Below, piece by piece: positions 1 through 63,170 of a DNA stretch of 64,000 bases. The stretch's first letter is position 1; each line of letters opens with the position of its first letter. Made by a program: the position numbers and the translations under genes. The DNA comes from an uncultured Mycoplasma sp. Lineage in GTDB: Bacteria; Bacillota_I; Bacilli_A; RF39; UBA660. A model generated the notes under the pieces. The model was not told where the DNA came from and did not search any database. It was given only the letters and a program-made list of their open reading frames with translations. The stretch is from the NCBI GenBank assembly GCA_902493595.1, contig CABUPU010000002.1, positions 73,942 to 137,941 of the forward strand, written 5' to 3'.

Positions 1-1
1 A

Positions 2-2005
2 GGAGAATTTAATATAACTCCTGGTAATTGTGTAAAAACTGGAAAACAAAGAACTGTAATATGGGATGGTGAAATAAAAATATATGATGAGTATTCGTAT
101 GAAGATAGAAAGTTTATTTTTATAAACAATGATCCCATTGAGATAAAGCCTCTTGAATGGGAATACAATGATATAACAAATAGTCTAATATGTAAACAAA
201 TTATTTGTGATAGTCCTAAAAGTGATTCAATTCTATTTTCTTATATATATATGAATTACTATCTTTTTAGAGAATTATTAGAAAATTACGAAGTAGATGC
301 AACAAATTCTATAAAACTTGTTGATGGAAAAAATGGTACTGTTTTTGCTTATCCTTATGATAATTATATGGAAATAGATGAAAATGGTAATGCAGTATGT
401 CATGATGCAAAGTCATATAATTTGATTATTCCGAAAGGCGTGAAAAAAGTCAAACTAGCGGCCACTAATTCAATTGTTGATGGTGATAATTATGAGTTAA
501 ATTTAAATATCGATATCGATGGAGAGAATTTAAAAATTGGTACAGAGACATTTGATTTTGATTATTTAGATATTGATGCTTCAATTAATAGTTTAACCGT
601 TCGTAATATTACTAAAAGTGTAGAAGATTATTCTTTTAGCTGTAAAAATTTAATAAATAATATCACTATTCCATGTGACTTTACACTTTTCTCTAGACTA
701 TATTTAGGTGGTAATAATAAAACTTCTAAAAATTTGTTTAGGAGTACGAATTTAACTCTTACTTATAAAAATGAAAAAGAATTAATTAATTTCATAAGTG
801 ATGTAAATAGATTTTTAAGTCTTATTATTAAAAGTAACAATAAATGTGCATATACAAATCAATGTGCCGGCTTTGGCTATCATTCTACAAAGGTTGATTT
901 TACATATAAACATAATTTGTATATGTGTAAAGATGTTACTGAGTGTATGCCAAGTGAACGGCTACTAGTAAATAAAGAAATATTATCTATTTTAAAAGTT
1001 AGCTATTTTACTTTAAAAGGCCCGACTATTAGTGATGAATTAATATCAAAATTATTTCCTAATTTTGCAGTAAAAAAGGATTTTACTGATTTAGTTCAAA
1101 AAGAGGATAATACTAAACAAATAAAGGAGTCTAAAGATAAGGAAGAAAAGCCAAAACTTTCAAAAGAAGCAGAACACATACTAGATTTAGCTAGAGAAAT
1201 AATGAGTATTGATTATATAGGCCTTGATAAGGAAGATGTCAGAAATAAAGTAAATGTTATAATTGATGAATATAATACTTCTTATGTAGTCGAAGAGAAT
1301 GGGTTGTCATTATCTACGAATAACGGATTATATACTAATACGATTATTAAATTAGAAAACTTAAGAGATACTTTATATCATAACTTTGAAAAAAATCTTG
1401 AATTTTATGATATCTTAGATTTAATAGAAAGTATGATTAATAAATTAAATGGTGGAGAAGTTAAAATAGATTATGAAATTTTAAAGGACTTAGATACTTT
1501 GACTAAAATAATTAAGTATAGCAAGGATGAACAAACTAAAATAGAACTTATTACTTATTTAGAAAATGAAAAGCAAAATATTATTGATTATTTATGCGGT
1601 AAAAAAGAAATGGATTATAAAAATATAAATGATTTTATTAAAAAATTTAGATTATATTTGATGCCAATACTTACAAAAGTATCTGGTAATGTGTCAAAAA
1701 TTGATGTAATAAAACAAATTAAAAATTATGCTTTAAGTGAAATGAATGATAAAGTAGAAACAAATACAAATAGTTATATAAAAGTTATATTAAGCGAGAT
1801 AAATAAGCTTAAACAAGATATCATTAAGCTTGATGAAAATTATACTTTCGAAGAACTTGATTATTCAGATTTTGCTTCAGGAAAAGAAATAATTGATTAT
1901 TTAGATAATCTATATATAAAATATTATAAAGATTACACTATTTTGCTAAATAAAAAGCAGAAATATGAAGACTATCAAAGTAATATGATTCCTAAAATAT
2001 ATTAA
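2..2005 (+). CDS. paralog-family protein A (5' end outside window): BspA-type LRR-like region plus conserved C-terminal domain
   Basis: The frame of ORF 251..2005 stays open back to position 2. Upstream residues (..IEIKPLEWEYNDITNSLICKQIIC..) align with an internal segment of paralogs B/C/D (e.g. VTPLNWFYDEVSHSLVCKDIIAGF). The IPCDFTLFSRLYLGGN block and the C-terminal ~290 aa (LSKEAEHILDLAREIMSIDYIGLDKE...) are ~80% identical to B/C/D. Confidence 0.75.
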   Translation, partial: GEFNITPGNCVKTGKQRTVIWDGEIKIYDEYSYEDRKFIFINNDPIEIKPLEWEYNDITNSLICKQIICDSPKSDSILFSYIYMNYYLFRELLENYEVDATNSIKLVDGKNGTVFAYPYDNYMEIDENGNAVCHDAKSYNLIIPKGVKKVKLAATNSIVDGDNYELNLNIDIDGENLKIGTETFDFDYLDIDASINSLTVRNITKSVEDYSFSCKNLINNITIPCDFTLFSRLYLGGNNKTSKNLFRSTNLTLTYKNEKELINFISDVNRFLSLIIKSNNKCAYTNQCAGFGYHSTKVDFTYKHNLYMCKDVTECMPSERLLVNKEILSILKVSYFTLKGPTISDELISKLFPNFAVKKDFTDLVQKEDNTKQIKESKDKEEKPKLSKEAEHILDLAREIMSIDYIGLDKEDVRNKVNVIIDEYNTSYVVEENGLSLSTNNGLYTNTIIKLENLRDTLYHNFEKNLEFYDILDLIESMINKLNGGEVKIDYEILKDLDTLTKIIKYSKDEQTKIELITYLENEKQNIIDYLCGKKEMDYKNINDFIKKFRLYLMPILTKVSGNVSKIDVIKQIKNYALSEMNDKVETNTNSYIKVILSEINKLKQDIIKLDENYTFEELDYSDFASGKEIIDYLDNLYIKYYKDYTILLNKKQKYEDYQSNMIPKIY

Positions 2006-2008
2006 GTG

Positions 2009-2042
2009 GTTACTTGCAAAGTAACTGCTTTTTTTATATAAT
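2009..2042 (+). promoter_or_regulatory. terminator hairpin fused to a sigma70-like promoter (copy 1 of 3 of a repeated cassette)
   Basis: gttactt-gca-aagtaac stem-loop followed by T7. TTGCAA (inside the hairpin) - 17 nt - TATAAT, then AAAGGA RBS and the ATG at 2066. Confidence 0.55.
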
Positions 2043-2065
2043 TGTTATAGTAAAGGAAAATAGAT

Positions 2066-4474
2066 ATGAATAAAGTATACATGACTTTTTTAACAGAAAT
2101 GTCATCCTTATCAGAACACAAAAATAGGACGACAACTTTATATGAACCTTTTAATGTAAGCGAAAATGGAACAATGCAAACTGATTTAACAGAGTTTTTA
2201 TATGGTAAAAGAAATGATTATTTTGTATCATATGAACCAGTTAATGATATATGTAGTAAAAAGAAATTAAAAAATAGTTTAGGAATAAACGAGCGCCAGT
2301 TCAAAGGCGATAAAGAAGTATATTATGGTATTAGACCAGTTATTAAAACAACTGGCTCACTTGAAACTTTCATAAGAAAAAATAGTATTAAAGATTTAGG
2401 CAATGATGAATATATGCTTGGCTATTATCCACAAGAGGTTGTTACTGATAAAAATTTAATTCAAGAATTAAGAGTATTTTCTGATTATAATGAAAAAGAT
2501 TATTCTATTCCTAAATATTCTTTTATAGTGCCATGTAAGGGAGTTACATATAAAGGCGAAGATTATATTTATATAAGTGGAAAGAATACTACTTATGTAA
2601 AGGTACAACCGTTAATATGGAAGTATGATAAAGAAAGTAATAGCCTAATTTGTAAAAATATTATCGCGGGTTTTTTAACCAAAACCAAGCCAAAGGCGTT
2701 TTTACATGAGGGATTTGACTTTTTAAATGAATATTTGTTAAGGGATATTTTCAAAGGTAGTATTAAAAGTTTAACCGATAATGTGAAAGTTTGTAATGAA
2801 ATTATACATGATGACTTGCAACGATTTTATCTTCCTTATGAAGGAACTATTGAAATGGATGAGGAAGGAAAATTATATTCACATGATGAAAAAACATATG
2901 AAATTAATATAGGCCCAAAAGTAAAAGTTATATCTAGTAATGCTGTAGAAAATTTATTTGATAATTGCCATAAAGATGGAACATTTGGTGTTGACATTAA
3001 TATTAAAAGCGATGATCTTACTATTTTATCACAAGCATTTGATTTTTCTAAGTCAGGTATTGATGTTTTCATTAGTCATGTAAATATAGATGCAAAAAAA
3101 CTTTCTTTAGCAGAAAAGGTATTTTCAAATGCAAACATGCAAGTAGTTCCAAGATGTGATGAGATATCTATTCCGTGTGATATTAAACTATTTGCAAGAC
3201 TTTATTTGAGTGGAAATAAAGTTGCTAGGAATTTACTTGATAGATCCTTTTTAAAAATTAATTATACATCAGAAAAAGAACTTGTTTCATTTTTAAATGA
3301 TGTTCAAAGATTTGTTAATTTGTTTTCCAAATATGGAGAAAAGTATACTAAAAATGAATATAATCCAAAAAAACGAGGAAATAATAAAATTGATTTTGTT
3401 TATAAACATGATTTATATGAATTTTCCCATTTTGATCTTGTTACATATAATTGTAAAAGTGAAAATTTATTTTACAAACTTAACACTTATGAAATTGTGC
3501 TTTCTGGCCCAAAAATTAATGAAAAACGCGTGTCATCATTTTTCAAAGATTACGCAAGAGTTAAATTTGAGTTCACTGATAAAAAAGCTAGGGAAGAATC
3601 TGCTGATATTAGTAATGATGAATCTCTTACTAAAGAAGCAGAACACATACTAGATTTAGCTAGAGAAATAATGAGTATTGATTATATAGGCCTTGATAAG
3701 GAAAATGTTAAAACAAAAGTCAAAAATATTGTAGGTGAATATAATAATAGTTTGTCGAAGAAAACTGAAGGACTTTCATTAACTACGAATAATGGAGTTT
3801 ATACAAATGCAGTTATTAAGTTAGAAAATTTAAGGGATTCACTGTATTATAACTTTGAAAAAAACCTGGATTATTATGATATTTTAGACTTAATAAAAAA
3901 CATGATTAAAAAACTAAATGATGAAAAGGTTAATTTAGATTATGAAATTTTGAAAGATTTAGATACGCTTAATAAAATTCTTGATTATAATAATGATAAT
4001 AATACGCGAAAAGAACTTATTACTTATTTAGAAAATGAAAGTAAAAGAATAATTGACTATTTATCTGGAAAGGCAGAAATTGATTATAAAAATATAGATG
4101 AATTTGTTAAAAAGTTTAGATTATTTTTAGTACCAATACTTGCAAGAGTAAGTGGTGATGTATCAAAAATTGATGTGATGGAGCAAATAAAAGATTATGC
4201 TATTGAGAAAATGAACAATAAAACTTCGGAAAATACAAATAATTATATAAAGATTATCTTAAGTGAAATAGATATAACGAAGCATCTTATTTTAGAACTT
4301 GATAGTAATTATACATTCGAAGAACTAGATTATTCATCATTTAAAACAGGTAAAGAAATAATTGATTATTTAGATAAAAAATATATGGAGTACTACAAAA
4401 TATATTTAAATCTTATGGAAAATAAGGTTAATGAAGAAAATTATGAAAATAGTAAAGTTCATTTAAATATTTAA
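2066..4474 (+). CDS. paralog-family protein B (802 aa): LRR-like N-terminal/middle region plus conserved C-terminal domain
   Basis: Full ORF with an SD-like AAAGGAAAA upstream. It shares the MxxVYMTF N-terminus, IPCDxxLFxRLYLxGN and the C-terminal 290 aa with C and D. IPxxVxxIxxxAF-type spacing is suggestive of BspA-type LRR (LRR_5). Confidence 0.8.
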   Translation: MNKVYMTFLTEMSSLSEHKNRTTTLYEPFNVSENGTMQTDLTEFLYGKRNDYFVSYEPVNDICSKKKLKNSLGINERQFKGDKEVYYGIRPVIKTTGSLETFIRKNSIKDLGNDEYMLGYYPQEVVTDKNLIQELRVFSDYNEKDYSIPKYSFIVPCKGVTYKGEDYIYISGKNTTYVKVQPLIWKYDKESNSLICKNIIAGFLTKTKPKAFLHEGFDFLNEYLLRDIFKGSIKSLTDNVKVCNEIIHDDLQRFYLPYEGTIEMDEEGKLYSHDEKTYEINIGPKVKVISSNAVENLFDNCHKDGTFGVDINIKSDDLTILSQAFDFSKSGIDVFISHVNIDAKKLSLAEKVFSNANMQVVPRCDEISIPCDIKLFARLYLSGNKVARNLLDRSFLKINYTSEKELVSFLNDVQRFVNLFSKYGEKYTKNEYNPKKRGNNKIDFVYKHDLYEFSHFDLVTYNCKSENLFYKLNTYEIVLSGPKINEKRVSSFFKDYARVKFEFTDKKAREESADISNDESLTKEAEHILDLAREIMSIDYIGLDKENVKTKVKNIVGEYNNSLSKKTEGLSLTTNNGVYTNAVIKLENLRDSLYYNFEKNLDYYDILDLIKNMIKKLNDEKVNLDYEILKDLDTLNKILDYNNDNNTRKELITYLENESKRIIDYLSGKAEIDYKNIDEFVKKFRLFLVPILARVSGDVSKIDVMEQIKDYAIEKMNNKTSENTNNYIKIILSEIDITKHLILELDSNYTFEELDYSSFKTGKEIIDYLDKKYMEYYKIYLNLMENKVNEENYENSKVHLNI

Positions 4475-4477
4475 GTG

Positions 4478-4511
4478 GTTGCTTGCAAAGTAACTACTTT
4501 TTTTATATAAT
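4478..4511 (+). promoter_or_regulatory. terminator hairpin + TTGCAA-N17-TATAAT promoter cassette (copy 2)
   Basis: gttgctt-gca-aagtaac stem (one G.U pair), then a T7 run and TATAAT at 4506-4511. The cassette is near-identical to copies 1 and 3. Confidence 0.55.
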
Positions 4512-4534
4512 TGTTATAGTAAAGGGTGTAAGAT

Positions 4535-6850
4535 ATGGATAGAGTATATATGACATTTTTAAGCAAAATAGATGTGGAGACTCCTTCGATGTTAAATATT
4601 TTAAGAAAAAAGGGACTTATTGCAACTCCAACTGATTTTGTTAAGTATTTATATGGTAATTATTCATATTTAATTGCTAGTGAGCCTTTATATAAAAAAC
4701 AATTTTTAACTACTTTTGATAAATCGTATCCAGATGGTATTAAAAACTATTTTGGAATAAGACCACTTATTGATACAAATAATATGCAAAGTTTCATAGA
4801 AAAAAATGCTATCTCTATTAATGGTAATGAAATTAAATTAGGTAGTTATCCAACAAGTGTAATTAAAGATGAAGCATTAATTCAAAAATTAAGTAATGCA
4901 TATAAAGAAAATAAGTTTAATGATAAAAAGTATCATATACCAATAGGAGATGAAATAATAGAGTGTAATTCAATTACTTTAGATGGCGAAGATTATGTTT
5001 ATATTAAAGAAAATGGTTTATATGTTAAAGTAACGCCACTTAATTGGTTTTATGATGAAGTATCGCACAGTTTAGTTTGCAAAGACATTATTGCAGGTTT
5101 TTCGATAAAACTTTCTGATAGAGCTTTTGAAAAATATGGTTACAACTTTTTAAATGAATATTTATTAAGGGATGTACTTCAAGATAAAATAACTAGATTA
5201 ACAGAACCAGTAGATTTAGTTAACCAAAAGTATTTAGATGAACTGCAGCAAATTGATTTCCCCTTTAAATCTGACTTTGAGGTAAGTAATGAAGGAAAAC
5301 TTTATTTTCACGATGAGAGGGAATATAATATTAACATCGATGACGAAAGCGTGAGAAAAATCGGTGAGTTTGCTCTTGAAAATTTAGATGCTTATGTTCA
5401 TAGAACTAATCCTGTGTTTAATATTAATATAAAAGGTAAAAAGAAAATCGTTGGCCTTCAGGCTTTTGATTTTTCCTCTTTAGGTTTAAATGCTAAAGTT
5501 AAAAGCCTTAATATTGATGTAGATGAACTTCGTGTAGCGGATCCGTTTATATGTGTTAATAGTCAAATTGAAAATGTATCAATGCATTGCGACTTTACTC
5601 TTTTTACAAGACTTTATTTTTGTGGCAAATATTTGGCTCGTAACTATTTAAAAGGTTCTAATTTAACTATTAAATACAAAAATGAAAAAGAACTTATAAT
5701 CTTTTTTAAAGATGTGCAAAGGTTTATTAATTTGCTAGCTAAATCAGATGAGAGAAATAAAATTGACTTTACTTATAAACATTCATTTTATGAGTGCCAT
5801 TCTCTTGCAGAATATAACTACAATTTTAATGCACAAACATTATTTTCTAAAATTGGTTTAGGTAGCATTAAGTTAGTTGGCCCTAGTATAAACAAAGATA
5901 GAATTGCAAATATTTTAGGAGAAATCCCTAATATTAAATATATTTTTACCGATACTCTTGAAGAAGAGACTAAAGAAAAAGATAAAGAGGAAAAACCAAA
6001 ACTTTCAAAAGAAGCTGAACATATACTTGATCTTTCTAGAGAAATATTAAGTATTGAATATATAGGACTTGATAAGGATAGTGTTAAAACAAAAGTCAAA
6101 GATATTGTTGATGAATATAATAATGGTTTATCAAAGAAAAATGAGGGGCTTTCACTAACAACAAATAATGGAGTATACACAGATGCAGTTATTAAGTTAG
6201 AAAAGTTAAGAGATACACTATACCATAATTTTGAAAAAAATCTTAATTATTATGATATTTTAGATTTAATAGAAAACATGATTAAAATGCTAAATAATGA
6301 TGAAGTTAATATAGATTATGAAATTTTAAAAGACTTAGAAACTTTAAATACTATTTTAAAATACAGTAAAGATGAACAAACTAAAGAAGAAATTATTACT
6401 TATTTAGAAAATGAAAGACAATTCATTACTGATTATTTATCTGGTAAGGCAGAAATTGAATATAAAAATGTAGATGAATTTGTTAAAAAGTTTAGATTAT
6501 TTTTAGTACCAATACTTACAAAAGTATCTGGTGATGTTTCAAAAATAGATGTAATGAGGCAAATAAAAGATTATGCTTTTAATGAAATGAATGATAAAAC
6601 TACAGAAAATACAAATAATTACATAAAGCTAATATTAAGTGAAATAGATAAAATTAAGAAAAACATTTTAGAACTTGATAGTGAATATGCATTCGAAGAC
6701 TTTGATTATTCATCATTTAAAACAGGAAAAGAAATACTTGATTATTTAGATAAAAAATATATGGAATATTATAGAGTATATTTAGATCTTATGAAAAATA
6801 AAGCTAACGAAGAAAACTATGAGAATAGTAAAGTGCCTTTAAATTTCTAA
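4535..6850 (+). CDS. paralog-family protein C (771 aa)
   Basis: Full ORF with RBS AAAGGGTG. Its C-terminal domain is ~80% identical to B and D, and it shares the N-terminal motif MDRVYMTFL. Confidence 0.8.
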   Translation: MDRVYMTFLSKIDVETPSMLNILRKKGLIATPTDFVKYLYGNYSYLIASEPLYKKQFLTTFDKSYPDGIKNYFGIRPLIDTNNMQSFIEKNAISINGNEIKLGSYPTSVIKDEALIQKLSNAYKENKFNDKKYHIPIGDEIIECNSITLDGEDYVYIKENGLYVKVTPLNWFYDEVSHSLVCKDIIAGFSIKLSDRAFEKYGYNFLNEYLLRDVLQDKITRLTEPVDLVNQKYLDELQQIDFPFKSDFEVSNEGKLYFHDEREYNINIDDESVRKIGEFALENLDAYVHRTNPVFNINIKGKKKIVGLQAFDFSSLGLNAKVKSLNIDVDELRVADPFICVNSQIENVSMHCDFTLFTRLYFCGKYLARNYLKGSNLTIKYKNEKELIIFFKDVQRFINLLAKSDERNKIDFTYKHSFYECHSLAEYNYNFNAQTLFSKIGLGSIKLVGPSINKDRIANILGEIPNIKYIFTDTLEEETKEKDKEEKPKLSKEAEHILDLSREILSIEYIGLDKDSVKTKVKDIVDEYNNGLSKKNEGLSLTTNNGVYTDAVIKLEKLRDTLYHNFEKNLNYYDILDLIENMIKMLNNDEVNIDYEILKDLETLNTILKYSKDEQTKEEIITYLENERQFITDYLSGKAEIEYKNVDEFVKKFRLFLVPILTKVSGDVSKIDVMRQIKDYAFNEMNDKTTENTNNYIKLILSEIDKIKKNILELDSEYAFEDFDYSSFKTGKEILDYLDKKYMEYYRVYLDLMKNKANEENYENSKVPLNF

Positions 6851-6853
6851 GTG

Positions 6854-6887
6854 GTTACTTGCAAAGTAACTGCTTTTTTTATATAAT
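6854..6887 (+). promoter_or_regulatory. terminator hairpin + TTGCAA-N17-TATAAT promoter cassette (copy 3)
   Basis: gttactt/aagtaac stem, T7 run, TTGCAA at 6859-6864 and TATAAT at 6882-6887. Identical to copy 1. Confidence 0.55.
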
Positions 6888-6910
6888 TGTTATAGTAAAG
6901 GGTGTAAGCT

Positions 6911-9202
6911 ATGAATAGAATATATATGACATTTCCTACTGAAGATGAAGTTAAATTTTTTCCTTGGTTAAAAGATGCAAATTCTTCTGCATTAGTGAGA
7001 GAATTGTTAAAAGATTTATACTATGAATCAGAAACTTTAATTGTGAATAAAAATGATACTTTAAATATTAAGAATAAACGCTTAGGCATTATAGTAAGAC
7101 CGGTTATTAATTCAAATGAATCTCTTGTTCCTTTTATTGAAAAAAATAGAATTAACAAGGGAGGTTATGATAGCATTTTACTTGGAACTTTTCCATTAAA
7201 AGTAGCAAATAATATAGACAGGGGTACGCTTACAGAAACAAATAAAAAAAGAACCATTCCGATTAATTATTCTATGGTAACTTTAAATGAATATACGGAT
7301 GGCAATCGAAATTTTGTTATTGTGGGTGATGATATTATTGAAATATTGCCTATTGAATGGGAATATGATGAAAGCATAAATAAATTATTTTGCAAAACTA
7401 GTATTTTTAAATGTAATACTAGTAAGACAAATGATTTATTGATGGCTTATAATTATATGAATAATCAACTTTTTATGGAAATGCTAGATGATTATACCGT
7501 TATAAAGGATAATTCTGATATAAAATTAATTGATGACAAAGGATACATATCATTTGATTATCCATATAGTTCCTTTATAGAGTTTGATGATTTAGGTAAT
7601 ATAATATTTCATGGTAATGAATATAATCTAACTATACCAAATACTGTAAGAAAAATAGATGAATATGCCTTTGATAAAATTCTTGGAAATGATAGTTCAA
7701 AATTATCTTTAAATATAGATATTGATGGTGATGATTTATCAATACCACCATATGCTTTTAATTTAAATACTATTCGTGCTAATGTACATATTGTGTATTT
7801 AAATGTTCATAACGAGTTAAGTGCAATCGGACAAGCCTCATTTAATACTAATTTTCCTATTGATAATATTACAATTTTGTGCGATTTTGCTCTTTTCTCT
7901 AGACTTTATTTAAGTGGTGATAATTTTGCAAAAAATCTTTTTGAAAATTCAAAATTTACTTTAACTTATACAAGCGAAAATGAATTAGTGAAATTTGTAA
8001 GTGATATAAATAGATTTTTTGAATTAATATATAAAAGTTTGCAAAAAGAAAAAAACAAACGATTTTATTCCAATGATGTAACCTCTATTGATTTTAGTTA
8101 CAAATTTAATACATATAAATATATAGATGCTTCAACTTGTATACCAAATATTGAACTTCTAAAAAACAAAGAAATTTTATCTATTTTAAAAGTAAGCTCT
8201 TTTACTTTAAAAGGTCCGACTATTAGTGATGAATTAATATCAAAATTATTTCCTAATTTTTCAGTAAAAAAGGAATTTACTGATTTAGTTCAAAAAGAAA
8301 AAACTGCAACTAAACAAATTGATGAACCAAAAAATAAAGAAGAAAAGGCAAAACTTTCTAAAGAAGTAGAGCACATACTGGATCTTGCTAGAGAAATAAT
8401 AAGCATCGAATACATAGGTCTTGATAAAGAAACAGTTCGTAAAAAAGTTGATGAAATTGTTATTGAATATAATAATGGATTATCTAAAAAAAGTGGGGGA
8501 TTATCATTAACAACAAATAATGGAGTGTATACAAATACTATTATTAAATTGGAAAACCTAAGAGATGCATTATATCATAATTTTGAAAAAAATCTTGGGT
8601 TTTATGATATTCTAGATTTAATTTCTAGTATGATTAAAAAACTAAATGATGAAGAGGTTAAAATAGATTATGAAATCTTAAAGGACTTAGATACTCTGAC
8701 TAAAATACTTAAGTATAGTAAAGATGAACAAACTAAAAATGAACTTATTTCCTATTTAGAAAATGAAAGCAAAAGAATAGTTGATTATTTATCTGGTAAG
8801 ATAGAAATTGATTATAAAAATATAGATGAATTTGTGAAAAAATTTAGATTATTCTTAGTACCAATACTTACAAGAGTATCTGGTAATGTATCAAAAGTAG
8901 ATGTAATGGAGCAAATAAAGGATTATGCTTTAGATGCAATGAATGATAAAACTACAGAAAATACAAATAATTACATAAAGCTAATATTAAGTGAAATAGA
9001 TAAAATTAAGAAAAACATTTTAGAACTTGATAGTGAATATGCATTCGAAGACTTTGATTATTCATCATTTAAAACAGGAAAAGAAATACTTGATTATTTA
9101 GATAAAAAATATATGGAATATTATAGAGTATATTTAGATCTTGTGGAAAATAAAGTTAATGAGGAAAACTATGAGAATAGTAAAGTACCTTTAATTTATT
9201 AA
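6911..9202 (+). CDS. paralog-family protein D (763 aa)
   Basis: Full ORF. The N-terminus MNRIYMTFP, the IPNTVRKIDEYAF LRR-like units and the conserved C-terminal domain are present. A 205-nt tract is identical to gene C. Confidence 0.8.
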   Translation: MNRIYMTFPTEDEVKFFPWLKDANSSALVRELLKDLYYESETLIVNKNDTLNIKNKRLGIIVRPVINSNESLVPFIEKNRINKGGYDSILLGTFPLKVANNIDRGTLTETNKKRTIPINYSMVTLNEYTDGNRNFVIVGDDIIEILPIEWEYDESINKLFCKTSIFKCNTSKTNDLLMAYNYMNNQLFMEMLDDYTVIKDNSDIKLIDDKGYISFDYPYSSFIEFDDLGNIIFHGNEYNLTIPNTVRKIDEYAFDKILGNDSSKLSLNIDIDGDDLSIPPYAFNLNTIRANVHIVYLNVHNELSAIGQASFNTNFPIDNITILCDFALFSRLYLSGDNFAKNLFENSKFTLTYTSENELVKFVSDINRFFELIYKSLQKEKNKRFYSNDVTSIDFSYKFNTYKYIDASTCIPNIELLKNKEILSILKVSSFTLKGPTISDELISKLFPNFSVKKEFTDLVQKEKTATKQIDEPKNKEEKAKLSKEVEHILDLAREIISIEYIGLDKETVRKKVDEIVIEYNNGLSKKSGGLSLTTNNGVYTNTIIKLENLRDALYHNFEKNLGFYDILDLISSMIKKLNDEEVKIDYEILKDLDTLTKILKYSKDEQTKNELISYLENESKRIVDYLSGKIEIDYKNIDEFVKKFRLFLVPILTRVSGNVSKVDVMEQIKDYALDAMNDKTTENTNNYIKLILSEIDKIKKNILELDSEYAFEDFDYSSFKTGKEILDYLDKKYMEYYRVYLDLVENKVNEENYENSKVPLIY

Positions 9203-9211
9203 ACTTCATAT

Positions 9212-9243
9212 AAAAAGTAGGATTAATAAAAATCCTATTTTTT
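9212..9243. terminator. bidirectional rho-independent terminator between the convergent gene D and the membrane-protein gene
   Basis: taggatt-aataa-aatccta hairpin flanked by an A5 run upstream and a T6 run downstream. Confidence 0.6.
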
Positions 9244-10059
9244 GTAAATAATACTGATTAATTTATTGAGTTCTTCTTTAGCTTCAACTGATAAACTACT
9301 GCTTTCATTTAAAATAATAGCATAAAGTATATATTCATTCCAAAGAGATATTTCTTTTAAAGACTTATCATTGAAATTGCCAAAATCTTTAAGATAATTT
9401 TTTAATCCTTTGAGTTTTAAATATATTTCTTTGCCTTTTTCAGTCTTTACTAGGCTTGCCTCTTTTAAAGAAAATCTTATCATTATAAAACTAATAATCC
9501 AAAATAATATAAATAGTATAATTTCTTGCTTTAAATAATTACTGTGTATTGTAATAAAATAAAAACAAATACCTCCGAATATAATGAAAGCTAAAAAATA
9601 AATCATTGTTGTAAAAGGATTATCTTTAAAGTAATATTTTTTTATACAGTTCTTTTGTTTTAGAGAATTTTCAATTTCTTTTATATAGTATTTATCAAAT
9701 TCCTTATCATTTATAAATTTATAATGATTTAAAATGTAAGATTGTTCTTGATTAACAGAAACATTATTAATTACATTTATTTCATCTTTTGCAAAAGATA
9801 TATATTTTTTGTTTTTTAAGTATTCAAGTTCTGCCATTTTTATTTGAGTAATATTTCTTTTGTTAAACAAATAACCAAGTTCACTAATTGAATAATCTTT
9901 TAAAATGTCCCTAAAATATTTGAATTTGTTTTCATCATTTTTATCAATCTTAATGCTTTTATAAAATAGTAGGTTTCTTTTTAAAACACTAATTATAAAA
10001 CACATTATGTAAATAATTAAAACTATAATTTGAATTTTTAATAATAAAATTTGACTCAC
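9235..10059 (-). CDS. hypothetical integral membrane protein (274 aa, GTG start)
   Basis: ORF with RBS GAAGGAAG 9 nt upstream of the GTG. It has an N-terminal TM helix and two central TM helices. The C-terminal region is loosely reminiscent of DUF2207-type proteins, but this is not verified. Confidence 0.5.
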   Translation of the reverse strand: MSQILLLKIQIIVLIIYIMCFIISVLKRNLLFYKSIKIDKNDENKFKYFRDILKDYSISELGYLFNKRNITQIKMAELEYLKNKKYISFAKDEINVINNVSVNQEQSYILNHYKFINDKEFDKYYIKEIENSLKQKNCIKKYYFKDNPFTTMIYFLAFIIFGGICFYFITIHSNYLKQEIILFILFWIISFIMIRFSLKEASLVKTEKGKEIYLKLKGLKNYLKDFGNFNDKSLKEISLWNEYILYAIILNESSSLSVEAKEELNKLISIIYKK

Positions 10060-10998: not shown

Positions 10999-11031
10999 TA
11001 TTTTGTGATATATTATATTTAGGTGAGATAT

Positions 11032-12219
11032 ATGATAGAGAGAAATGAATACTTAGAAGCATTAAAAAATTGGAAAGACAAAGATTTGATAAAAGTAGTT
11101 ACTGGTATAAGAAGGTGTGGTAAATCTACTTTATTTGAATTATTCGTAAATTATTTAAAACAAATAGGCGTTAATGATGAACATATAATATTTTTAAATC
11201 TTGAATCTCCTGAATATAATTTTAATGATTACATGGAACTTTATAATTATGTTAATGATAAAATAAAGGACAAAGATATGTATTATGTATTTTTGGATGA
11301 AGTTCAAGTTGTTCCACAATTTGAAAAGGCAGTCGATGGTCTTTATATAAAGAAAAATGTAGATGAATATATAACAGGTTCAAATGCTTATCTTCTATCT
11401 GGAGAACTTGCTACATTTTTATCTGGAAGATATGTGGAGTTTAAAATGTTTCCTTTATCATTTAAAGAATATGCAAATTACTACAAACAAGAAGGGGATG
11501 AGAAACTATATTTAAAATATATAAATAATAGTTCTATGCCTTATGCCTTAAAATTAGATAATCAAGATGAGGTTGATAAATATTTAGACAGTATATATAA
11601 TACAATAATAATTAAAGATATAGTAACTAGAAAAAAAATTGCTGATACAGGTATGCTTAGAAGCGTTTCTGAATTTATGTTTTCTAGTGTTGGTAACCTA
11701 TTATCTGTAAAAAAGATAGCTGATACATTAACATCTGCTGGAAGAAGTATATCAGTACATACAGTAGAAAACTATTTGGATTCTTTAGTAGAAAGCTTTA
11801 TTTTTAATAAGGCATCTAGATATGACATAAAAGGGAAACAATACTTAACTACTGGAGAAAAATATTATGCTACCGATGTTACTATGAGATATGCTTTGTT
11901 GGGTAGAAAATATATCGATTTAGGATGTATTTTAGAAAATATAGTATATTTGGAATTAGTAAGAAGAGGATATAAAGTATATATAGGTAAATCTGGTGAT
12001 AGAGAGATAGACTTTGTTGCAGAAAATAGTAAAGGAGTACAATATTTTCAAGTTGCATATACAGTAAGAGATAAAAATACATTAGAAAGAGAATTATCAG
12101 CTTTAGAATCCATAAATGATCATTATCCAAAATTTATATTAACAATGGATATAGATCCAGAAGTTGATTATAATGGAATAAGAAAAATTAATGTACTTGA
12201 TTGGTTGTTGGGCAAATAG
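11032..12219 (+). CDS. AAA+ ATPase of the COG1373 / AAA_14 + DUF4143 family
   Basis: Walker A GIRRCGKST and Walker B-like VFLDEVQ. The overall pattern is typical of the DUF4143 ATPase family. RBS AGGTGA is 5 nt upstream of the ATG at 11032. Confidence 0.75.
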   Translation: MIERNEYLEALKNWKDKDLIKVVTGIRRCGKSTLFELFVNYLKQIGVNDEHIIFLNLESPEYNFNDYMELYNYVNDKIKDKDMYYVFLDEVQVVPQFEKAVDGLYIKKNVDEYITGSNAYLLSGELATFLSGRYVEFKMFPLSFKEYANYYKQEGDEKLYLKYINNSSMPYALKLDNQDEVDKYLDSIYNTIIIKDIVTRKKIADTGMLRSVSEFMFSSVGNLLSVKKIADTLTSAGRSISVHTVENYLDSLVESFIFNKASRYDIKGKQYLTTGEKYYATDVTMRYALLGRKYIDLGCILENIVYLELVRRGYKVYIGKSGDREIDFVAENSKGVQYFQVAYTVRDKNTLERELSALESINDHYPKFILTMDIDPEVDYNGIRKINVLDWLLGK

Positions 12220-14631: not shown

Positions 14632-14889
14632 ATGAGACAAACAAAAGGAATAGTTACTGAGGTATTTATGCCAAATGAATATAGAGAAGAGTTACTTCTT
14701 GATACATTAGATAATAATGTAATCGGCTTTAAAGTAAATACTAGTGATGGAGAAAGAGTAATAATCGAAGAAATTGATGAATTTAATAGTCAAATAATGA
14801 AGGATGACTTAGTTTTGATTACTGAGCAAACTATTGATGGTCATTATTTTATAGATATAGAACTTACTGAGGATGAAAATGAAATATGA
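14632..14889 (+). CDS. small acidic hypothetical protein (85 aa) immediately upstream of and overlapping the helicase gene
   Basis: ORF with AGGTGA 5 nt upstream of the ATG at 14632. It overlaps the helicase start by 17 nt, which suggests coupling. Confidence 0.45.
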   Translation: MRQTKGIVTEVFMPNEYREELLLDTLDNNVIGFKVNTSDGERVIIEEIDEFNSQIMKDDLVLITEQTIDGHYFIDIELTEDENEI

Positions 14890-17800
14890 TGTAGTAGGAT
14901 TATATGAACATAATGAAATAAGTTATGATAAAGTAAAAGAAGCTTTTAAAACTAGCGATGTTGTGGGAATAGTTCAAGCAACAGGTACTGGTAAAAGTTA
15001 TAATGCTTTACAGATTTGTTATGATAATCAGGGCAAAAAAATAATATATGTTGTGCCATCTTTAGGAATTATTGAACATATTAAATCAATAATCGAAGAA
15101 AATCCTAACTTATCATTAGATAAAGATTTTAAAAATGTTGAATTTAGAACCTATCAAAGTTTTTTAAACCTTTCAAAAAAAGAAATGGAAAGCATACCTT
15201 GTGATTTAATAATAGATGATGAATTTCATCATCTTGGAGCACCTGTATGGGGACAAAGAGTTAAAACATTTATAGAACTTCATCCAGGTGTTAAAGTATT
15301 TGGAATGACTGCTTATACTGTAAGAGATCGTGGAACAATATATGAAAGAGATATGGCTAATCCTGATACTGATGAATTGTTTTCAAATAAAATAGTTAGT
15401 AAATATGATTTATGTGATGCAATGGTTGATAAGGTATTACCAAAACCAATATATAAATGTGCTTATATAGGGTTAGAAAAAATGTTAAATGAATTCGAAG
15501 CCAAAGTAAAAGAAAGTAGCAAAGAAATAAATGAACTACTTGAAAGTGCTAGAAAGAAAGTCCACGAAGCACCAAGTATTAAAGATTTAGTAATAAAATC
15601 AATTAAGAAAAATGGTAAATATATTTATTTTTGTCCGCCATATTCAGAAAAAGGTGAAAATGATATTGAAAGTATAAAAAAGGAAGCCTTAGAATGGTTT
15701 AAATCTATTCTTCCCGAAGAAGATATTGTATTTTATACCTCGACAAGTGATATGGGAACATTTGGAAAGCAAAATAGAAAAGCTTTTTACAATGATTTAG
15801 ATTTAGAGGGTAAAGATGCCAAAGGAAAACTTCGTGTAATGTTTGCTATAAATCAATATAATGAAGGAATACATGCTCCCAATGTAGATGGAGTAATAAT
15901 GGGAAGAACAACTACATCAGATATAGTATTTTTTGAGCAGTTAGGAAGAGCATTGTCCGTAAAAGGAAATACTTTCGAAGAATATAATCATTTAATAAAT
16001 TTAAGTTATGAACAGTTACTCCAATTGTGTAAAGATAAAGATATTCCAGTAAAAGAAGATGCTACTAAAGAAGATATGATAGAAAGTTTACTTGCACCAG
16101 TGGTAATCGATTTAGTGGGAAACTATGAATATATAAAAGAACTTGAAAATAATTTACAAAATAGAGTTAAGGAAATTCAAAGTAAAGGCCCAGGTAATGA
16201 AAGAGTTATTAAATTAAAAAATCCTACATTTGATATTGAAGTTGAAAATAAAAACTTATATGAAATGTTAGAAAATTTAAGAGAAAAATTAACACTTTCT
16301 TGGAATGATATGTATGAATATGCAAAAAAATATTACGAACATTATGGAAATCTCGATGTACAGTATAAATTTAAAACCAATGATGGCTTCACTAAAAATG
16401 ATGATGGTAAAATAAATCTTGGGGTGTGGATTACTAATCAAAGACATAAACTTACTCCAGAAAGTGAAAAAGGAAAATTATTATTGCAAATAGGAATGAG
16501 TTTTGAAAATAAAAAAAGTACTTTTTCTTGGGAAGAAATGTATGAGTATGCAAAAAAATATTATGAGCATTATAAAAATCTTGAAGTTCCTCATAGGTTC
16601 AAAACCGATGATGGTTTTTCGTCAAATGAATATGGAAAAATAAATCTCGGAGTTTGGATTCAAAATCAAAGATATAAAATTTCTGTAGATAGTGAAAAAG
16701 GAAAGTTACTTTCTCAAATAGGAATGCGTTTTGAACGGAAAAAAATCTCTTGGGAAGAAATGTATGAATATGCAAAAAAATATTATGAACATTATAAAGA
16801 TCTTGAGGTGCCTATCAAATTTAAAACAAACGATGGTTTTACTAGAGATGACAATGGCAAAATAAACTTAGGAGCTTGGCTTCAAAATCAGAAATATATT
16901 ATTTCCCCGGATAGTGAAAGAGAAAAGTTACTAATGCAAATAGGAATGCACTTTGAGCGAAAAAATATTTCTTGGGAAGAAATGTATGAATATGCAAAGA
17001 AATATTATGAACATTATAAAGATCTTGAAGTACCTGCTAAATTTAAAACAACTAATGGATTTACTAAAGATGACAATGGTAAAATTAATTTAGGAATATG
17101 GATCTTGTCTCAAAGGCATAATATTTCTCCGGACAGTGAAAAAGGAAAGTTATTATCACAAATAGGAATGAGTTTTGAAAATAAAAAAAGTACTCTTTCC
17201 TGGGAAGAAATGTATGAATATGCAAAGAAATATTATGAACATTATGGAAACCTTGAGGTATCTGCCAAATTTAAAACGAATGATGGTTTTACTAGAGATG
17301 ACAATGGTAATATTAATTTAGGTGCTTGGATTTCATATCAAAGAAAAAGAGTTTCTCCAGAAAGTGAAAAGGGAAAACTACTATCACAAATAGGAATGCG
17401 TTTTGAAACAAAGAAAAATGTTTCTTGGGAAGAAATGTATGAGTATGCAAAGAAATATTATGAACATTATGCAAACCTTGAGGTACCTAACAAATTCAAA
17501 ACCAATGATGGTTATACCTTTGATGAGAAAGGTGAAATAAATCTTGGAAATTGGATTATTGCACAAAGGCATAATATTTCTCCGGACAGTGAAAAAGGCA
17601 AACTACTTTCACAAATAGGACTGCGTTTTGCAAATTTAAGAAGTCTAATTTCATGGGAAGAAATGTATGAGCAAGCTAAAAAATATCAAAAATATTATGG
17701 CAATCTTGAAGTACCTAAAAAATTTAGAACTGATGATATTTATACTTATGATAAAAATGGTAAAATTAAATTGGGATTATGGGTAGATAGAATGCGTAAA

Positions 17801-18634
17801 ACAATTGATCTCCAAAGTGAAAAAGGCAAGCTACTTACGCAAATTGGTATGAGATTTACTGAAGAAGTTCCGGATGAAGTTTGGTTAAATATGTATTCTT
17901 ATGCAAAAAGGTATTATGATACATGGGGATATTTAGCAAATATGAACTGCGAATTTAAAACCAATGATGGCGTTAATTACGATAAGTATGGCAAAATTAA
18001 TTTGGGATTATGGGTAGATGAACAAAAAAATCTTATTGCTCCGGAAAGTAAACGAGGTAGAATGCTTGCCCAACTTGGTATGGATTTTCCTAAAAAGAAA
18101 ATGACCTGGTTTACAATGTATGAACTTGCAAAAAAATATTATGAATACTACGATAATCTTAGAATTCCTATAACTTTTAAAACTAACGATGGAATTAATT
18201 ATGATAAAAATGGTAAATTTGACTTAGGACTGTGGTTATTTCGCCAATTTGAAAACAATGACCCGACTAGTGAACAAGGTATTTTACTTTCAAATATTGG
18301 AATGATATGGAACAATGATATAAGACTTTTACAACTTCATATAGCGTGTGATGCTCACAAAATAGACTTTGAAAAGTATAAAGATGAGCTTTTCAAAATT
18401 CCAATTTCCTTGTTATGTGCCAAAATGGATTTTTTATACTTTAATTCTATTCCAATTATAGATAGTGAAGGCAATCTTAATGAAATATTTAATTTAAATA
18501 GTACTGAAATTTATGAAAAATATAATATTACAATTAAACAGTTACTTTCTAAATATAAGTCTACTTTAAACTTTTGCAGTTATATTCTTAAAAAACGATT
18601 AAGTGAGAGTGAAAAAAATAAAAAAGTTTTATAA
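14873..18634 (+). CDS. DEAH/ResIII-type SF2 helicase with nine C-terminal helicase-associated (HA, PF03457-like) domains
   Basis: Walker A-like ATGTGKS and motif II DDEFHH (DEAHH-like) at the N-terminus. Then nine ~73-aa units of pattern SWEEMYEYAKKYYEHYGNLEVPxKFKTNDGFTxDDNGKINLGxWIxNQR...EKGKLLSQIGMRF. Confidence 0.75.
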   Translation: MKMKYDVVGLYEHNEISYDKVKEAFKTSDVVGIVQATGTGKSYNALQICYDNQGKKIIYVVPSLGIIEHIKSIIEENPNLSLDKDFKNVEFRTYQSFLNLSKKEMESIPCDLIIDDEFHHLGAPVWGQRVKTFIELHPGVKVFGMTAYTVRDRGTIYERDMANPDTDELFSNKIVSKYDLCDAMVDKVLPKPIYKCAYIGLEKMLNEFEAKVKESSKEINELLESARKKVHEAPSIKDLVIKSIKKNGKYIYFCPPYSEKGENDIESIKKEALEWFKSILPEEDIVFYTSTSDMGTFGKQNRKAFYNDLDLEGKDAKGKLRVMFAINQYNEGIHAPNVDGVIMGRTTTSDIVFFEQLGRALSVKGNTFEEYNHLINLSYEQLLQLCKDKDIPVKEDATKEDMIESLLAPVVIDLVGNYEYIKELENNLQNRVKEIQSKGPGNERVIKLKNPTFDIEVENKNLYEMLENLREKLTLSWNDMYEYAKKYYEHYGNLDVQYKFKTNDGFTKNDDGKINLGVWITNQRHKLTPESEKGKLLLQIGMSFENKKSTFSWEEMYEYAKKYYEHYKNLEVPHRFKTDDGFSSNEYGKINLGVWIQNQRYKISVDSEKGKLLSQIGMRFERKKISWEEMYEYAKKYYEHYKDLEVPIKFKTNDGFTRDDNGKINLGAWLQNQKYIISPDSEREKLLMQIGMHFERKNISWEEMYEYAKKYYEHYKDLEVPAKFKTTNGFTKDDNGKINLGIWILSQRHNISPDSEKGKLLSQIGMSFENKKSTLSWEEMYEYAKKYYEHYGNLEVSAKFKTNDGFTRDDNGNINLGAWISYQRKRVSPESEKGKLLSQIGMRFETKKNVSWEEMYEYAKKYYEHYANLEVPNKFKTNDGYTFDEKGEINLGNWIIAQRHNISPDSEKGKLLSQIGLRFANLRSLISWEEMYEQAKKYQKYYGNLEVPKKFRTDDIYTYDKNGKIKLGLWVDRMRKTIDLQSEKGKLLTQIGMRFTEEVPDEVWLNMYSYAKRYYDTWGYLANMNCEFKTNDGVNYDKYGKINLGLWVDEQKNLIAPESKRGRMLAQLGMDFPKKKMTWFTMYELAKKYYEYYDNLRIPITFKTNDGINYDKNGKFDLGLWLFRQFENNDPTSEQGILLSNIGMIWNNDIRLLQLHIACDAHKIDFEKYKDELFKIPISLLCAKMDFLYFNSIPIIDSEGNLNEIFNLNSTEIYEKYNITIKQLLSKYKSTLNFCSYILKKRLSESEKNKKVL
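16293..18310 (+). repeat. nine tandem ~220-bp coding repeats (HA-domain units); the central six are near-identical at the DNA level
   Basis: Units start near 16297, 16527, 16749, 16968, 17199, 17420, 17652, 17880 and 18105. The block tcttgggaagaaatgtatga(a/g)tatgcaaa(a/g)aaatattatgaacattat recurs. Confidence 0.8.
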
Positions 18635-58062: not shown

Positions 58063-58412
58063 TAAAAAAGAAGCATAAGTTAACATAATATATATTATAC
58101 GAAGTTAATAATTGATATAGAAATTATAGATAATTTAAGCATTAATTGATTAATTCATTGATGCTTTTTTTATAGTAAATATCAATTTAAATTTGTAATT
58201 CAAATTATAATTTAGTTATAACAAAAAATAATTTTAATATAAAAATTTTATTTAATTTTAAAATTATGAATTATATAGAACATTATTAATAATAAATAAA
58301 GTAATATTTACCTTATTAAATATAAAATAAGGTTATAATATAATACCTTATTAATATATAAATAAGGATATATACGCGTATACTTTATTTCACTAAAAAA
58401 TAGGGTAGTCCC

Positions 58413-59210: not shown

Positions 59211-59281
59211 AAATTATCCTTGTACTCCTTTACATTTTTATTATACATTACTTAACAGTATTTTGTAAACCTATTTTAATA

Positions 59282-62203: not shown

Positions 62204-62206
62204 AAT

Positions 62207-62854: not shown

Positions 62855-62949
62855 ATACTCACCTACTACTTTCCTTAGTAAGTATAACATATTATTAGGT
62901 AATTGTAAATTTTAAAAATATATAGTATAATACTAATTATGGACGAAAT

Positions 62950-63156: not shown

Positions 63157-63170
63157 AAGGAAAAAATTAA

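What the first reader, a model, noticed from the sequence alone, without database searches (positions are those of the whole stretch)
1..9202. Head-to-tail array of at least four large paralogous genes: conserved C-terminal domain, diversified LRR-like N-terminal halves
Four consecutive same-strand genes (763-802 aa; the first runs off the window) share a ~290-aa C-terminal domain at roughly 80% identity (LSKEAEHILDLAREIMSIDYIGLDKE ... ENYENSKVPLN), and all begin MxxVYMTF. Their N-terminal 450-500 aa are much more divergent and contain IPxxVxxIxxxAF-spaced units reminiscent of BspA-type leucine-rich repeats. None has a signal peptide or TM segment. I do not recognise the conserved C-terminal domain. 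Each copy has its own promoter. This is the layout of a diversifying intracellular recognition family (conserved effector or anchor module plus variable binding module), not of housekeeping genes. It lies immediately next to core genes.
Basis: partly seen in the sequence, partly recalled or inferred. Interest (0 to 1): 0.8.

Follow-up and report, generated by a model that had tools for sequence, protein, structure and literature searches.

The report
Tandem family of modular binding proteins
An uncultured gut bacterium carries seven head-to-tail genes for large, unannotated proteins with no export signal; their differing front halves look like ligand-binding modules and their shared helical tail is kept alike by recombination, which suggests a repertoire of recognition proteins, but what they do is unknown.

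Summary
The window holds the last four genes of a seven-gene chromosomal array (plus one small membrane-protein gene). The host is an uncultured low-GC gut Bacilli lineage whose closest named relative is 'Mycoplasma sp. CAG:472'.

Each protein has three parts:
- N domain (~235 aa): a circularly permuted relative of DUF6273. Published work models DUF6273 as C-type-lectin-like. In distant relatives, the loop before the IRPV strand is rewritten by an intact diversity-generating retroelement (DGR).
- Middle module (~235 aa): beta-rich, with only weak fold similarity to BspA/LRR_5-type repeats.
- Tail (~285 aa): all-helical, with no relative in Pfam, NCBIfam, PADLOC, PHROGs or PDB.

None has a signal peptide or TM segment. 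All modules are under purifying selection (dN/dS 0.2-0.35). Tails are homogenised and swapped by recombination. Copy number (4-7), gene order and head/tail pairings differ between related genomes. A conserved 60-nt terminator-hairpin/promoter-like cassette separates the five genes from C to G4.

Diversification is by cassette shuffling, not point mutation. The function is inferred, not shown.

Novelty: new variant of a known kind. Interest about 0.55.

The parts
1..2005 (+). G1, 3' 667 codons of a 766-aa paralogue. The gene starts 295 nt upstream of the window (L007 7640). The helical tail covers roughly 1148..2005.
2004..2065 (+). Intergenic cassette 1. It holds a terminator-like hairpin AAGTGGTTACTTGCAAAGTAACTGCTT plus a T7 run (2004-2030), a TTGCAA-17-TATAAT promoter-like site (2014-2042) and an AAAGGA ribosome-binding site.
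2066..4474 (+). G2, 802-aa paralogue. The tail starts at about 3614.
4473..4534 (+). Intergenic cassette 2. Same hairpin, with changes that keep the stem paired (GTGGTTGC...GTAACTAC).
4535..5239 (+). G3 N domain (aa 1-235), a circularly permuted DUF6273-like domain. Residues ~51-79 correspond to the DGR variable region of relatives.
5240..5944 (+). G3 middle module (aa 236-470). It is beta-rich with high model confidence and weak LRR-like fold similarity.
5945..6001 (+). G3 linker, acidic/lysine-rich and modelled as disordered (about aa 471-489).
6002..6850 (+). G3 helical tail (aa 490-771). It has nine helices, no relative in any annotated family library or PDB, and has been homogenised by gene conversion.
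6849..6910 (+). Intergenic cassette 3.
6911..9202 (+). G4, 763-aa paralogue and last gene of the array. The tail starts at about 8342.
9218..9244 (.). Hairpin TAGGATT-N7-AATCCTA plus a T run, between G4 and the convergent DUF2207_C gene. It is a likely bidirectional terminator that closes the array, and it differs from the internal cassette.
   Evidence: read from the sequence

Best explanation
The locus encodes a lineage-specific repertoire of soluble, acidic proteins that lack a signal peptide and are therefore probably cytoplasmic.

Each protein has a recognition 'head' and a shared 'tail'. The head is a permuted DUF6273-like domain, whose loop before the IRPV strand is the likely specificity site, followed by a beta-rich, weakly LRR-like module. 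The tail is an all-helical domain that I infer docks every family member onto one common partner or assembly. That partner could be the tails of other members, or the small basic membrane protein (s158) encoded inside the array.

Shown:
- the domain anatomy
- homology of the N domain to a domain that an intact DGR rewrites in relatives
- absence of export signals
- purifying selection on all modules
- gene conversion of tails
- head/tail reshuffling and copy-number change between genomes

Inferred:
- Heads bind different ligands.
- The tail is a docking or assembly module.
- The ~0.9-kb conserved block (tail + 60-nt spacer + first codons) is the recombination substrate that adds, deletes and re-pairs head cassettes.
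- Each gene from G1 to G4 is its own transcription unit, because of the terminator/promoter cassette.

The biological role is unknown. The most likely role is sensing in some conflict or interaction with phages, other cells or the host.
For: Array and paralogy.

No hit to any annotated family or solved structure, by sequence.

An exhaustive profile search of 1.84 billion representatives found only 93 relatives. These include ~550-600-aa N+C proteins that lack the middle module, and N-only proteins.

N domain and DUF6273:
- 11 of 43 distant N-domain relatives carry Pfam DUF6273.
- hhalign matches N 100-219 to DUF6273 unit positions 5-128 (probability 97%) and N 28-80 to unit positions 175-240 (77%). 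The two halves are in swapped order.
- A relative, P0374, aligns to the N domain at hhalign probability 100 (E 3e-44). It sits next to bAvd and an RT. Its variable region shows 12 of 12 mismatches at template adenines (p 1.6e-7). That region maps to G3 residues ~51-79.
- This is the least conserved head segment in the window (22% identity, 29% gapped).
- Papers describe DUF6273 as a C-type-lectin-like DGR target or receptor-binding domain (PMC10743442; bioRxiv 10.1101/2024.10.15.618418).

Intracellular location:
- No TM segment or signal peptide.
- All 38 aligned N-domain relatives start the domain within about 20 residues of Met1.
- Abundant relatives carry weak AAA_5 matches and sit next to a DUF2201 VWA-like gene.

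Evolution:
- dN/dS is 0.19-0.35 in all modules (one exception is given under evidence against). dS is 0.03-0.065 in the heads against 0.68 in the tail for the same gene pair.
- Head and tail best matches disagree.
- Copy number is 4-7 and gene order differs.

Cassette: conserved across species with changes that keep the stem paired, and confined to the array within the window.

s158: conserved between genes B and C, and its start overlaps the stop of B.
Against: No ligand, partner or phenotype is known.

The tail model has only moderate confidence (pLDDT about 70), and its fold hits are generic helical bundles.

Lack of a Sec signal does not exclude non-classical export.

There are no PADLOC hits. 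The array sits at one fixed chromosomal site in every genome seen, which is unlike a typical mobile defence island.

One head comparison gave dN/dS 0.85, on low dS (N domain versus L002).

The promoter and terminator calls are consensus matches only. The region as a whole has about as many promoter-like matches as shuffled sequence (170 against 158 +/- 12).
Confidence: 0.45

Rival explanations
1. Surface adhesin family. The heads (lectin-like plus LRR-like) bind host or microbial surface molecules. The conserved tail anchors the proteins to the envelope, as in internalins, PcpA or BspA-like proteins. Export would use an unrecognised route.
For: The best beta-type fold hits are surface LRR_5-type proteins: TpLRR, BACOVA/BACCAP LRR proteins and PcpA. 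Characterised DUF6273 domains are extracellular: phage receptor-binding proteins and the N-terminal domain of a secreted IgA protease. The neighbours include an SH3_3 protein, a DUF2207_C membrane protein and the in-array membrane protein s158. Large paralogue arrays in reduced host-associated bacteria often encode surface proteins (general knowledge).
Against: None of the seven paralogues has a signal peptide, lipobox or TM segment, and no Pfam or NCBIfam cell-wall-anchor domain was detected. The whole permuted N-domain family starts at Met1 with no leader. Relatives are fused to AAA+ ATPase-like regions, which are cytoplasmic. The proteins are strongly acidic and have 4-11 cysteines.
Confidence: 0.2
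2. Dedicated anti-phage (abortive-infection-type) sensors. Each head recognises a different phage component, and the helical tail is the effector, for example by oligomerising or attacking the membrane.
For: The proteins are intracellular, multi-copy and head-variable with a common tail. Cassettes are exchanged between lineages: some are 97-99% identical between genomes whose other cassettes are 63-75% identical. Relatives of the N domain are DGR targets attached to MoxR-like AAA+/VWA gene pairs. From my own recollection, unchecked here, that gene-pair layout has been proposed as a conflict system (Kaur et al. 2020).
Against: There is no match to 5,027 PADLOC models. No recognisable nuclease, NADase, protease or pore domain is present. 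The array is at the same chromosomal site in all six species-level genomes rather than patchily distributed. There are no relatives in phage or plasmid collections. The heads are under purifying, not positive, selection.
Confidence: 0.2
3. Phase- or antigenic-variation system like the variable surface protein loci of Mollicutes, in which one copy is expressed at a time through slippage in the T run of the promoter spacer.
For: Each spacer has a T7 run between the -35-like and -10-like hexamers. The host lineage carries a Mycoplasma name at NCBI.
Against: The T run is T7 in 13 of 15 spacers from seven loci, and T6AA in the other two. No length series is seen. No other simple repeats were found. 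All copies are intact ORFs. The proteins are not lipoproteins.
Confidence: 0.05
4. Assembly duplication artefact or decaying pseudogene array.
For: None for the window. One copy in a related MAG (L004) is broken into 578-aa and 202-aa ORFs.
Against: The copies are 72-85% identical at the DNA level, not identical. The same array is found in several independent assemblies and species. All ORFs in the window are intact, with dN/dS 0.2-0.35.
Confidence: 0.01

Closest known systems
DUF6273 (PF19789) domains. Papers model these as C-type-lectin-like. They are DGR targets and receptor-binding modules of gut phages ('tentaclins', Mtd-like proteins) and form the N-terminal domain of the IgA protease ThomasA.
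   Same: Both halves of the DUF6273 unit are recognisable in the N domain by profile-profile comparison. In relatives of the N domain, an intact DGR rewrites the loop before the (G)VRPAL strand, which is where DUF6273/CLec variable regions lie.
BspA/TpLRR-type leucine-rich repeat proteins (Pfam LRR_5, PF13306; structures 6mlx, 4oju, 4fs7, 4fdw, PcpA 4cp6)
   Different: There is no LRR_5 HMM match. Self-comparison finds no significant internal repeat (E 0.73). The module also holds long strands and three helices. It has no signal peptide.
Internalin multigene family of Listeria and pneumococcal choline-binding proteins (analogy only)
   Same: A variable binding head sits on a family-wide C-terminal module, and the genes form a multigene family in one genome.
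   Different: Those proteins are Sec-exported and their tails are known wall anchors. Here there is no export signal and the tail is a helical domain that matched no annotated family. No sequence relationship was tested or claimed.
~640-aa gut-metagenome proteins with the same permuted N domain, a weak AAA_5 (MoxR-like) region and an adjacent DUF2201 VWA-like gene. Some have an intact DGR (P0374 in L016).
   Same: The N domain is homologous (hhalign probability 100). They have no leader peptide.
   Different: Their C-terminal part is unrelated to the helical tail. They have no middle module. They are single-copy, not in arrays. They diversify by DGR rather than by paralogue cassettes.

Membership tests
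LRR_5 / BspA-type leucine-rich repeats (PF13306) | Match to the Pfam LRR_5 profile | tested here: not met
   No LRR family at E<=1 for G1-G4, nor at E<=0.01 for seven paralogues of L001.
LRR_5 / BspA-type leucine-rich repeats (PF13306) | Tandem ~20-25-aa repeats detectable within the module | tested here: not met
   Profile self-comparison of the middle module: best off-diagonal hit E 0.73.
LRR_5 / BspA-type leucine-rich repeats (PF13306) | Solenoid fold superimposable on solved LRR_5 structures | tested here: inconclusive
DUF6273 (PF19789) | Match to the Pfam DUF6273 profile | tested here: not met
   No hit in G1-G4. 11 of 43 distant N-domain relatives do hit it.
DUF6273 (PF19789) | Profile-profile homology to canonical DUF6273 units, in the same linear order | tested here: not met
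   Both halves match (probability 97% and 77%) but in swapped order, so this is a permuted variant and not a canonical member.
DUF6273 (PF19789) | C-type-lectin-like fold | tested here: inconclusive
DGR target (variable) protein | Reverse transcriptase, Avd and a template repeat nearby, with adenine-specific TR/VR mismatches | tested here: not met
   No RT or Avd by tblastn in the window or L007 (best E 0.8), and no TR-like copy of head segments. The heads are nearly identical between close genomes (dS 0.03-0.065). The feature is met in a relative (L016: 12/12 mismatches at A).
MoxR-type AAA+ / VWA systems | AAA+ ATPase domain in the protein and an adjacent VWA-domain gene | tested here: not met
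   No AAA match in the paralogues and no VWA/DUF2201 gene in L007. The feature is present only in N-domain relatives.
Known anti-phage defence systems (PADLOC-DB 2.0) | Match to any PADLOC model | tested here: not met
   Best E 0.48.
Mollicute-type variable surface lipoproteins | Lipoprotein signal peptide, plus a length-variable homopolymer or repeat controlling expression | tested here: not met
   No hydrophobic N-terminus. The T run is invariant across 15 spacers.

The most novel reading that the evidence does not exclude
The array is a germline-encoded intracellular receptor repertoire. A gut bacterium with a small genome keeps 4-7 fixed versions of a lectin-like recognition head, the same head that related proteins diversify somatically with a DGR. 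It shuffles these heads onto a common, so far unknown helical signalling or assembly tail by gene conversion. The tail, possibly together with the co-encoded membrane protein s158, would be a new effector or docking module of a conflict or sensing system.
Probability: 0.2. Interest if true: 0.75.

Novelty: new variant of a known kind. Interest (0 to 1): 0.55.

Why it matters
About 17 kb of a small genome in a common but uncultured human-gut lineage is spent on a protein family that no annotation library covers.

The family ties together three things:
- a permuted form of a lectin-like domain that DGRs hypermutate in relatives
- a helical tail domain with no match in any annotated family library or in PDB
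- a clear case of concerted evolution and cassette shuffling driven by a conserved tail-plus-spacer block

If the heads are receptors, the locus shows a second way of diversifying the same binding domain, by paralogue cassettes instead of a DGR. It also gives a concrete set of proteins to test for what these uncultured bacteria sense.

The side finding may be of separate interest: DGR targets that have no leader peptide and are fused to MoxR-like ATPase regions.

Tried and rejected
Searches that found nothing for the large paralogues:
- Pfam, NCBIfam, PADLOC and PHROGs scans of the paralogues: no hits.
- PDB sequence searches with three profiles: nothing relevant. The Sel1 hits came from an unrelated part of P0278.
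- Foldseek of the full model against PDB: best E 0.11.
- Relatives in IMG/VR, GenBank phages and plasmids: none. Two alignments were too diverse for the pattern scan.
- Names for distant relatives from source databases: none.
- A paper search for the named organism found none; the taxonomy look-up only listed its taxid.

Hypotheses tested and dropped:
- Internal repeats in the middle module: none significant.
- Phase variation by T-run slippage: the run is invariant.
- A 158-aa gene next to a distant relative (L009) is unrelated to s158; the equal length is a coincidence.
- A DGR in the window: none.
- Positive selection on the heads: dN/dS is 0.25-0.35. One value of 0.85 rests on low dS and is not interpretable.


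Full report
**1. What is in the sequence**

Window positions 1-9202 hold four + strand ORFs separated by 60-nt spacers:
- G1, 2..2005, cut by the window edge
- G2, 2066..4474, 802 aa
- G3, 4535..6850, 771 aa
- G4, 6911..9202, 763 aa

An exact-protein look-up recovered the window's own contig as L007 (ENA ERZ857791 NODE_55, 169 kb). It has 0 mismatches over the 14,474 nt it shares with the window.

L007 shows the full array, in this order:
- SH3_3 gene on the minus strand
- A (709 aa)
- B (718 aa)
- s158 (158 aa, one clear TM helix)
- C (763 aa)
- G1 (766 aa), G2, G3, G4
- DUF2207_C gene on the minus strand
- NUDIX, an AAA_14/DUF4143 ATPase, a PBP, and further core genes

A and B are divergent family members (hhalign probability 99.9, about 30% identity).

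The rest of the window is ordinary chromosome: MraY, rpoB, rpoC, RelA/SpoT, MutS and SMC. GC content is about 25%.

A scan of one genome per species (185,579 species) found the family in only six genomes, at one locus each. These are five uncultured Bacilli/Bacillales MAGs, four of them from Hadza stool metagenomes, and 'Mycoplasma sp. CAG:472'.

The array is not an assembly artefact. The copies are 72-85% identical at the DNA level, and the array recurs in independent assemblies.

**2. Anatomy of the proteins**

Alignment and an AlphaFold2 model of G3 (mean pLDDT 80) give three modules and a disordered linker:
- N, residues 1-235, mixed alpha/beta, pLDDT about 88
- M, residues 236-470, beta-rich with three helices, pLDDT about 91
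- linker, about residues 471-489, modelled as disordered
- C, residues 490-771, nine helices, pLDDT about 70, with a disordered stretch at 667-700

Among C and G1-G4 the modules are 24-45% (N), 25-51% (M) and 65-82% (C) identical.

None of the seven proteins has a TM segment or a signal-like N-terminus. They are acidic, with net charge -14 to -28.

No module matches anything in Pfam, NCBIfam, PADLOC or PHROGs, or in PDB by sequence.

**3. How far the family reaches**

A profile of 15 full-length members was run with HMMER against 1.84 billion representative proteins. It found only 93 hits at E<=1e-3. Besides close relatives, the hits are of two kinds:
- rare ~550-600-aa proteins made of N + C without the middle module
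- proteins that have only the N domain

So the middle module is an insertion specific to this clade, and the tail is confined to this small group.

One N+C relative is a single-copy gene in a spore-former contig. The contexts of two others were looked up, and neither gene list shows a tandem array.

**4. The N domain**

Eleven of 43 distant N-domain relatives carry Pfam DUF6273. Their sequences show that the order of conserved motifs differs from the canonical unit.

- In the canonical unit (P0278) the order is GxYPQ ... PIxWxVL ... WLxxF, then LLSxxE ... TDYA ... WLLRxP ... IRP.
- In this family the block TLLSxxE ... TDFA ... YWTxS ... IRPV comes first, and GEYPQ ... PIxWxVD ... LISK ... FLN comes second.

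hhalign confirms this. N 100-219 matches DUF6273 unit positions 5-128 (probability 97%, E 6e-11). N 28-80 matches unit positions 175-240 (probability 77%, E 2e-5). The N domain is therefore a circularly permuted relative of DUF6273.

Papers describe DUF6273 as C-type-lectin-like. It is a DGR target in phage receptor-binding proteins (PMC10743442; bioRxiv 10.1101/2024.10.15.618418) and the N-terminal domain of a gut IgA protease (PMC12402451).

**5. A functional clue from relatives**

The permuted N domain is common: 944 proteins at E<=1e-3 in a word-indexed search.

Most are ~640-aa 'hypothetical' proteins with these features:
- The C-terminal half shows the same weak AAA_5/AAA match in three members (E 0.009-0.04).
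- They are followed by a 130-aa gene and a DUF2201_N/DUF2201 (VWA-like) gene.

In L016 such a protein (P0374) aligns with the N-domain profile at hhalign probability 100 (E 3e-44). It lies directly downstream of a bAvd-like gene, an 80-nt template repeat and an intact RVT_1 gene. All 12 TR/VR mismatches are at template adenines (p 1.6e-7).

L011 has a decayed version of the same element: 12 of 19 mismatches at A, and a fragmented RT.

The variable region (VRAVDRDGTRDHECRYERIGAVRPAL) maps to G3 residues ~51-79. In the window's paralogues this is the least conserved head segment (22% identity, 29% gapped), and residues 51-67 of it form the low-confidence loop of the N domain in the model.

This is the best evidence that the N domain is a ligand-binding module and that this loop sets its specificity.

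It also argues for a cytoplasmic setting, for two reasons:
- All 38 aligned relatives begin the domain within about 20 residues of the start.
- Several relatives are fused to ATPase-like regions.

The window itself has no RT, no Avd and no template-like copy of head segments.

**6. The middle module and the 'LRR' idea**

Against this, Pfam LRR_5 does not match and profile self-comparison finds no internal repeat (E 0.73). I rate the LRR-like reading as weakly supported at fold level only.

The helical hits for the tail are generic: designed bundles, F-BAR, EzrA and terpene synthases. Foldseek against PDB found nothing.

**7. Evolution of the array**

Heads and tails have different histories:
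- By N and M, the paralogues group as (G1, G4) and (C, G2, G3).
- By the tail, neighbours group together: (G2, G3, G4) and (C, G1).

Orthologues of G3 in other genomes keep the N domain at 83-94% identity. Their tails are only 73-80% identical, about as far apart as paralogous tails within one genome.

Between G3 and its L003 orthologue, dS is 0.065 (N), 0.030 (M) and 0.68 (C). dN/dS is 0.19-0.35 in all modules, apart from one value of 0.85 on low dS (N domain versus L002).

Best-match mapping across loci shows many head/tail mismatches. Array content and order also differ:
- L007: A, B, s158, C, G1, G2, G3, G4
- L001: A, B, s158, C', G3, G1', G1'', G2
- L003: B, s158, C, G1', G2, G3 (locus cut upstream)
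- L002: A, B, s158, C, G3

Some cassettes are 97-99% identical between genomes whose other cassettes are 63-75% identical. This implies lateral exchange by homologous recombination. One copy in L004 is broken.

The genes are therefore functional. The tails evolve in concert. The locus diversifies by cassette gain, loss and re-pairing, not by positive selection on residues.

**8. The spacer cassette**

The four spacers from C to G4 are nearly identical. Each contains:
- an 11-12-bp hairpin followed by a T7 run, which looks like a terminator
- a TTGCAA-17-TATAAT match, with the -35-like hexamer lying in the hairpin loop
- an AAAGGA/AAAGGG ribosome-binding site

The cassette is conserved in all related loci, even where the proteins are only 42-51% identical. 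Its variants keep the stem paired (GTGG...CTGC versus GTAG...CTAC). In the 64-kb window it occurs only in the array.

The T run does not vary in length, which argues against slippage-based phase variation.

A and B have a different shared upstream motif. B, s158 and C look like one operon: the s158 start overlaps the stop of B, and C starts 17 nt after s158.

**9. Interpretation**

Shown: the array, the three-module anatomy, the permuted DUF6273 relationship, the DGR targeting of the homologous loop in relatives, the absence of export signals, purifying selection, and tail conversion and cassette shuffling.

Inferred:
- The heads bind different ligands.
- The tail is a common docking or assembly module. 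s158, which is basic (net +9), membrane-anchored and conserved in the array, is a candidate partner for the acidic tails.
- The conserved tail + spacer + first-codon block is the recombination substrate.

The biological role is open. I favour an intracellular recognition repertoire, possibly in a conflict or sensing system. The rivals are a non-classically exported adhesin family and a dedicated anti-phage system. Neither can be excluded with these tools.

**10. Verdict**

The finding is real and the family is uncharacterised.

It is a new variant of a known kind: a multigene family with variable binding heads on a conserved tail. The head is built from a permuted DUF6273-like domain, and the tail matches no annotated family. 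Interest is moderate (0.55). The anatomy and evolution are clear and unusual, but the function is unknown and the family is confined to one uncultured clade.

Noticed in passing
L016 2940..8939 (relative P0374); decayed copy in L011 8211..13915: An intact diversity-generating retroelement: a bAvd-like gene, an 80-nt template repeat, then RVT_1. Its target has no leader peptide and combines the permuted DUF6273-like N domain with a weak AAA_5 (MoxR-like) region. It is followed by a 130-aa gene and a DUF2201 VWA-like gene. 12 of 12 TR/VR mismatches are at template adenines. In L011 the RT is fragmented and 7 of 19 mismatches are not at A.
   Followed up: partly
L007 4794..5270 (3.1 kb upstream of window position 1): A 158-aa basic protein (net +9) with one strong TM helix (residues 41-59) is encoded inside the array between B and C. 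Its start overlaps the stop of B. It is conserved at this position in L001-L004 and L007 (62-97% identity) and has no Pfam match.
   Followed up: partly
window 2004-2065, 4473-4534, 6849-6910: The 60-nt spacer is more conserved across species than the coding sequence. Its hairpin is also a near-perfect palindrome (GTTAC-N7-GTAAC) centred on the -35-like hexamer, so it could be an operator for a dimeric regulator as well as a terminator.
   Followed up: partly
window 14873..18634 (+): A 1,253-aa protein with an N-terminal ResIII helicase domain and seven copies of the HA (helicase-associated) domain.
   Followed up: no
window 9235..10059 (-) and 11023..12219 (+): A 274-aa membrane protein consisting only of the DUF2207 C-terminal domain closes the array. 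It is absent in L002, where NUDIX follows the array directly. An AAA_14/DUF4143 ATPase lies downstream here, whereas in L001 a homologous gene lies upstream of the array.
   Followed up: no
L004 13324..15682: One array member in the UBA6448 MAG is split into 578-aa and 202-aa ORFs. This is either a pseudogene or an assembly or frameshift error.
   Followed up: no
window ~58000-64000: GC skew changes from positive to negative at about 58 kb, where gene orientation also flips (SMC and its neighbours are on the minus strand). This may mark a replication origin or terminus.
   Followed up: no
L007 423..456 and 2607..2640: Genes A and B share their own conserved upstream block (TGTGGTAGAATATTTCTTACCAAAAGGGGGATAT before the ATG, with an extended -10-like TGnTAGAAT). 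It differs from the cassette used between C and G4.
   Followed up: no
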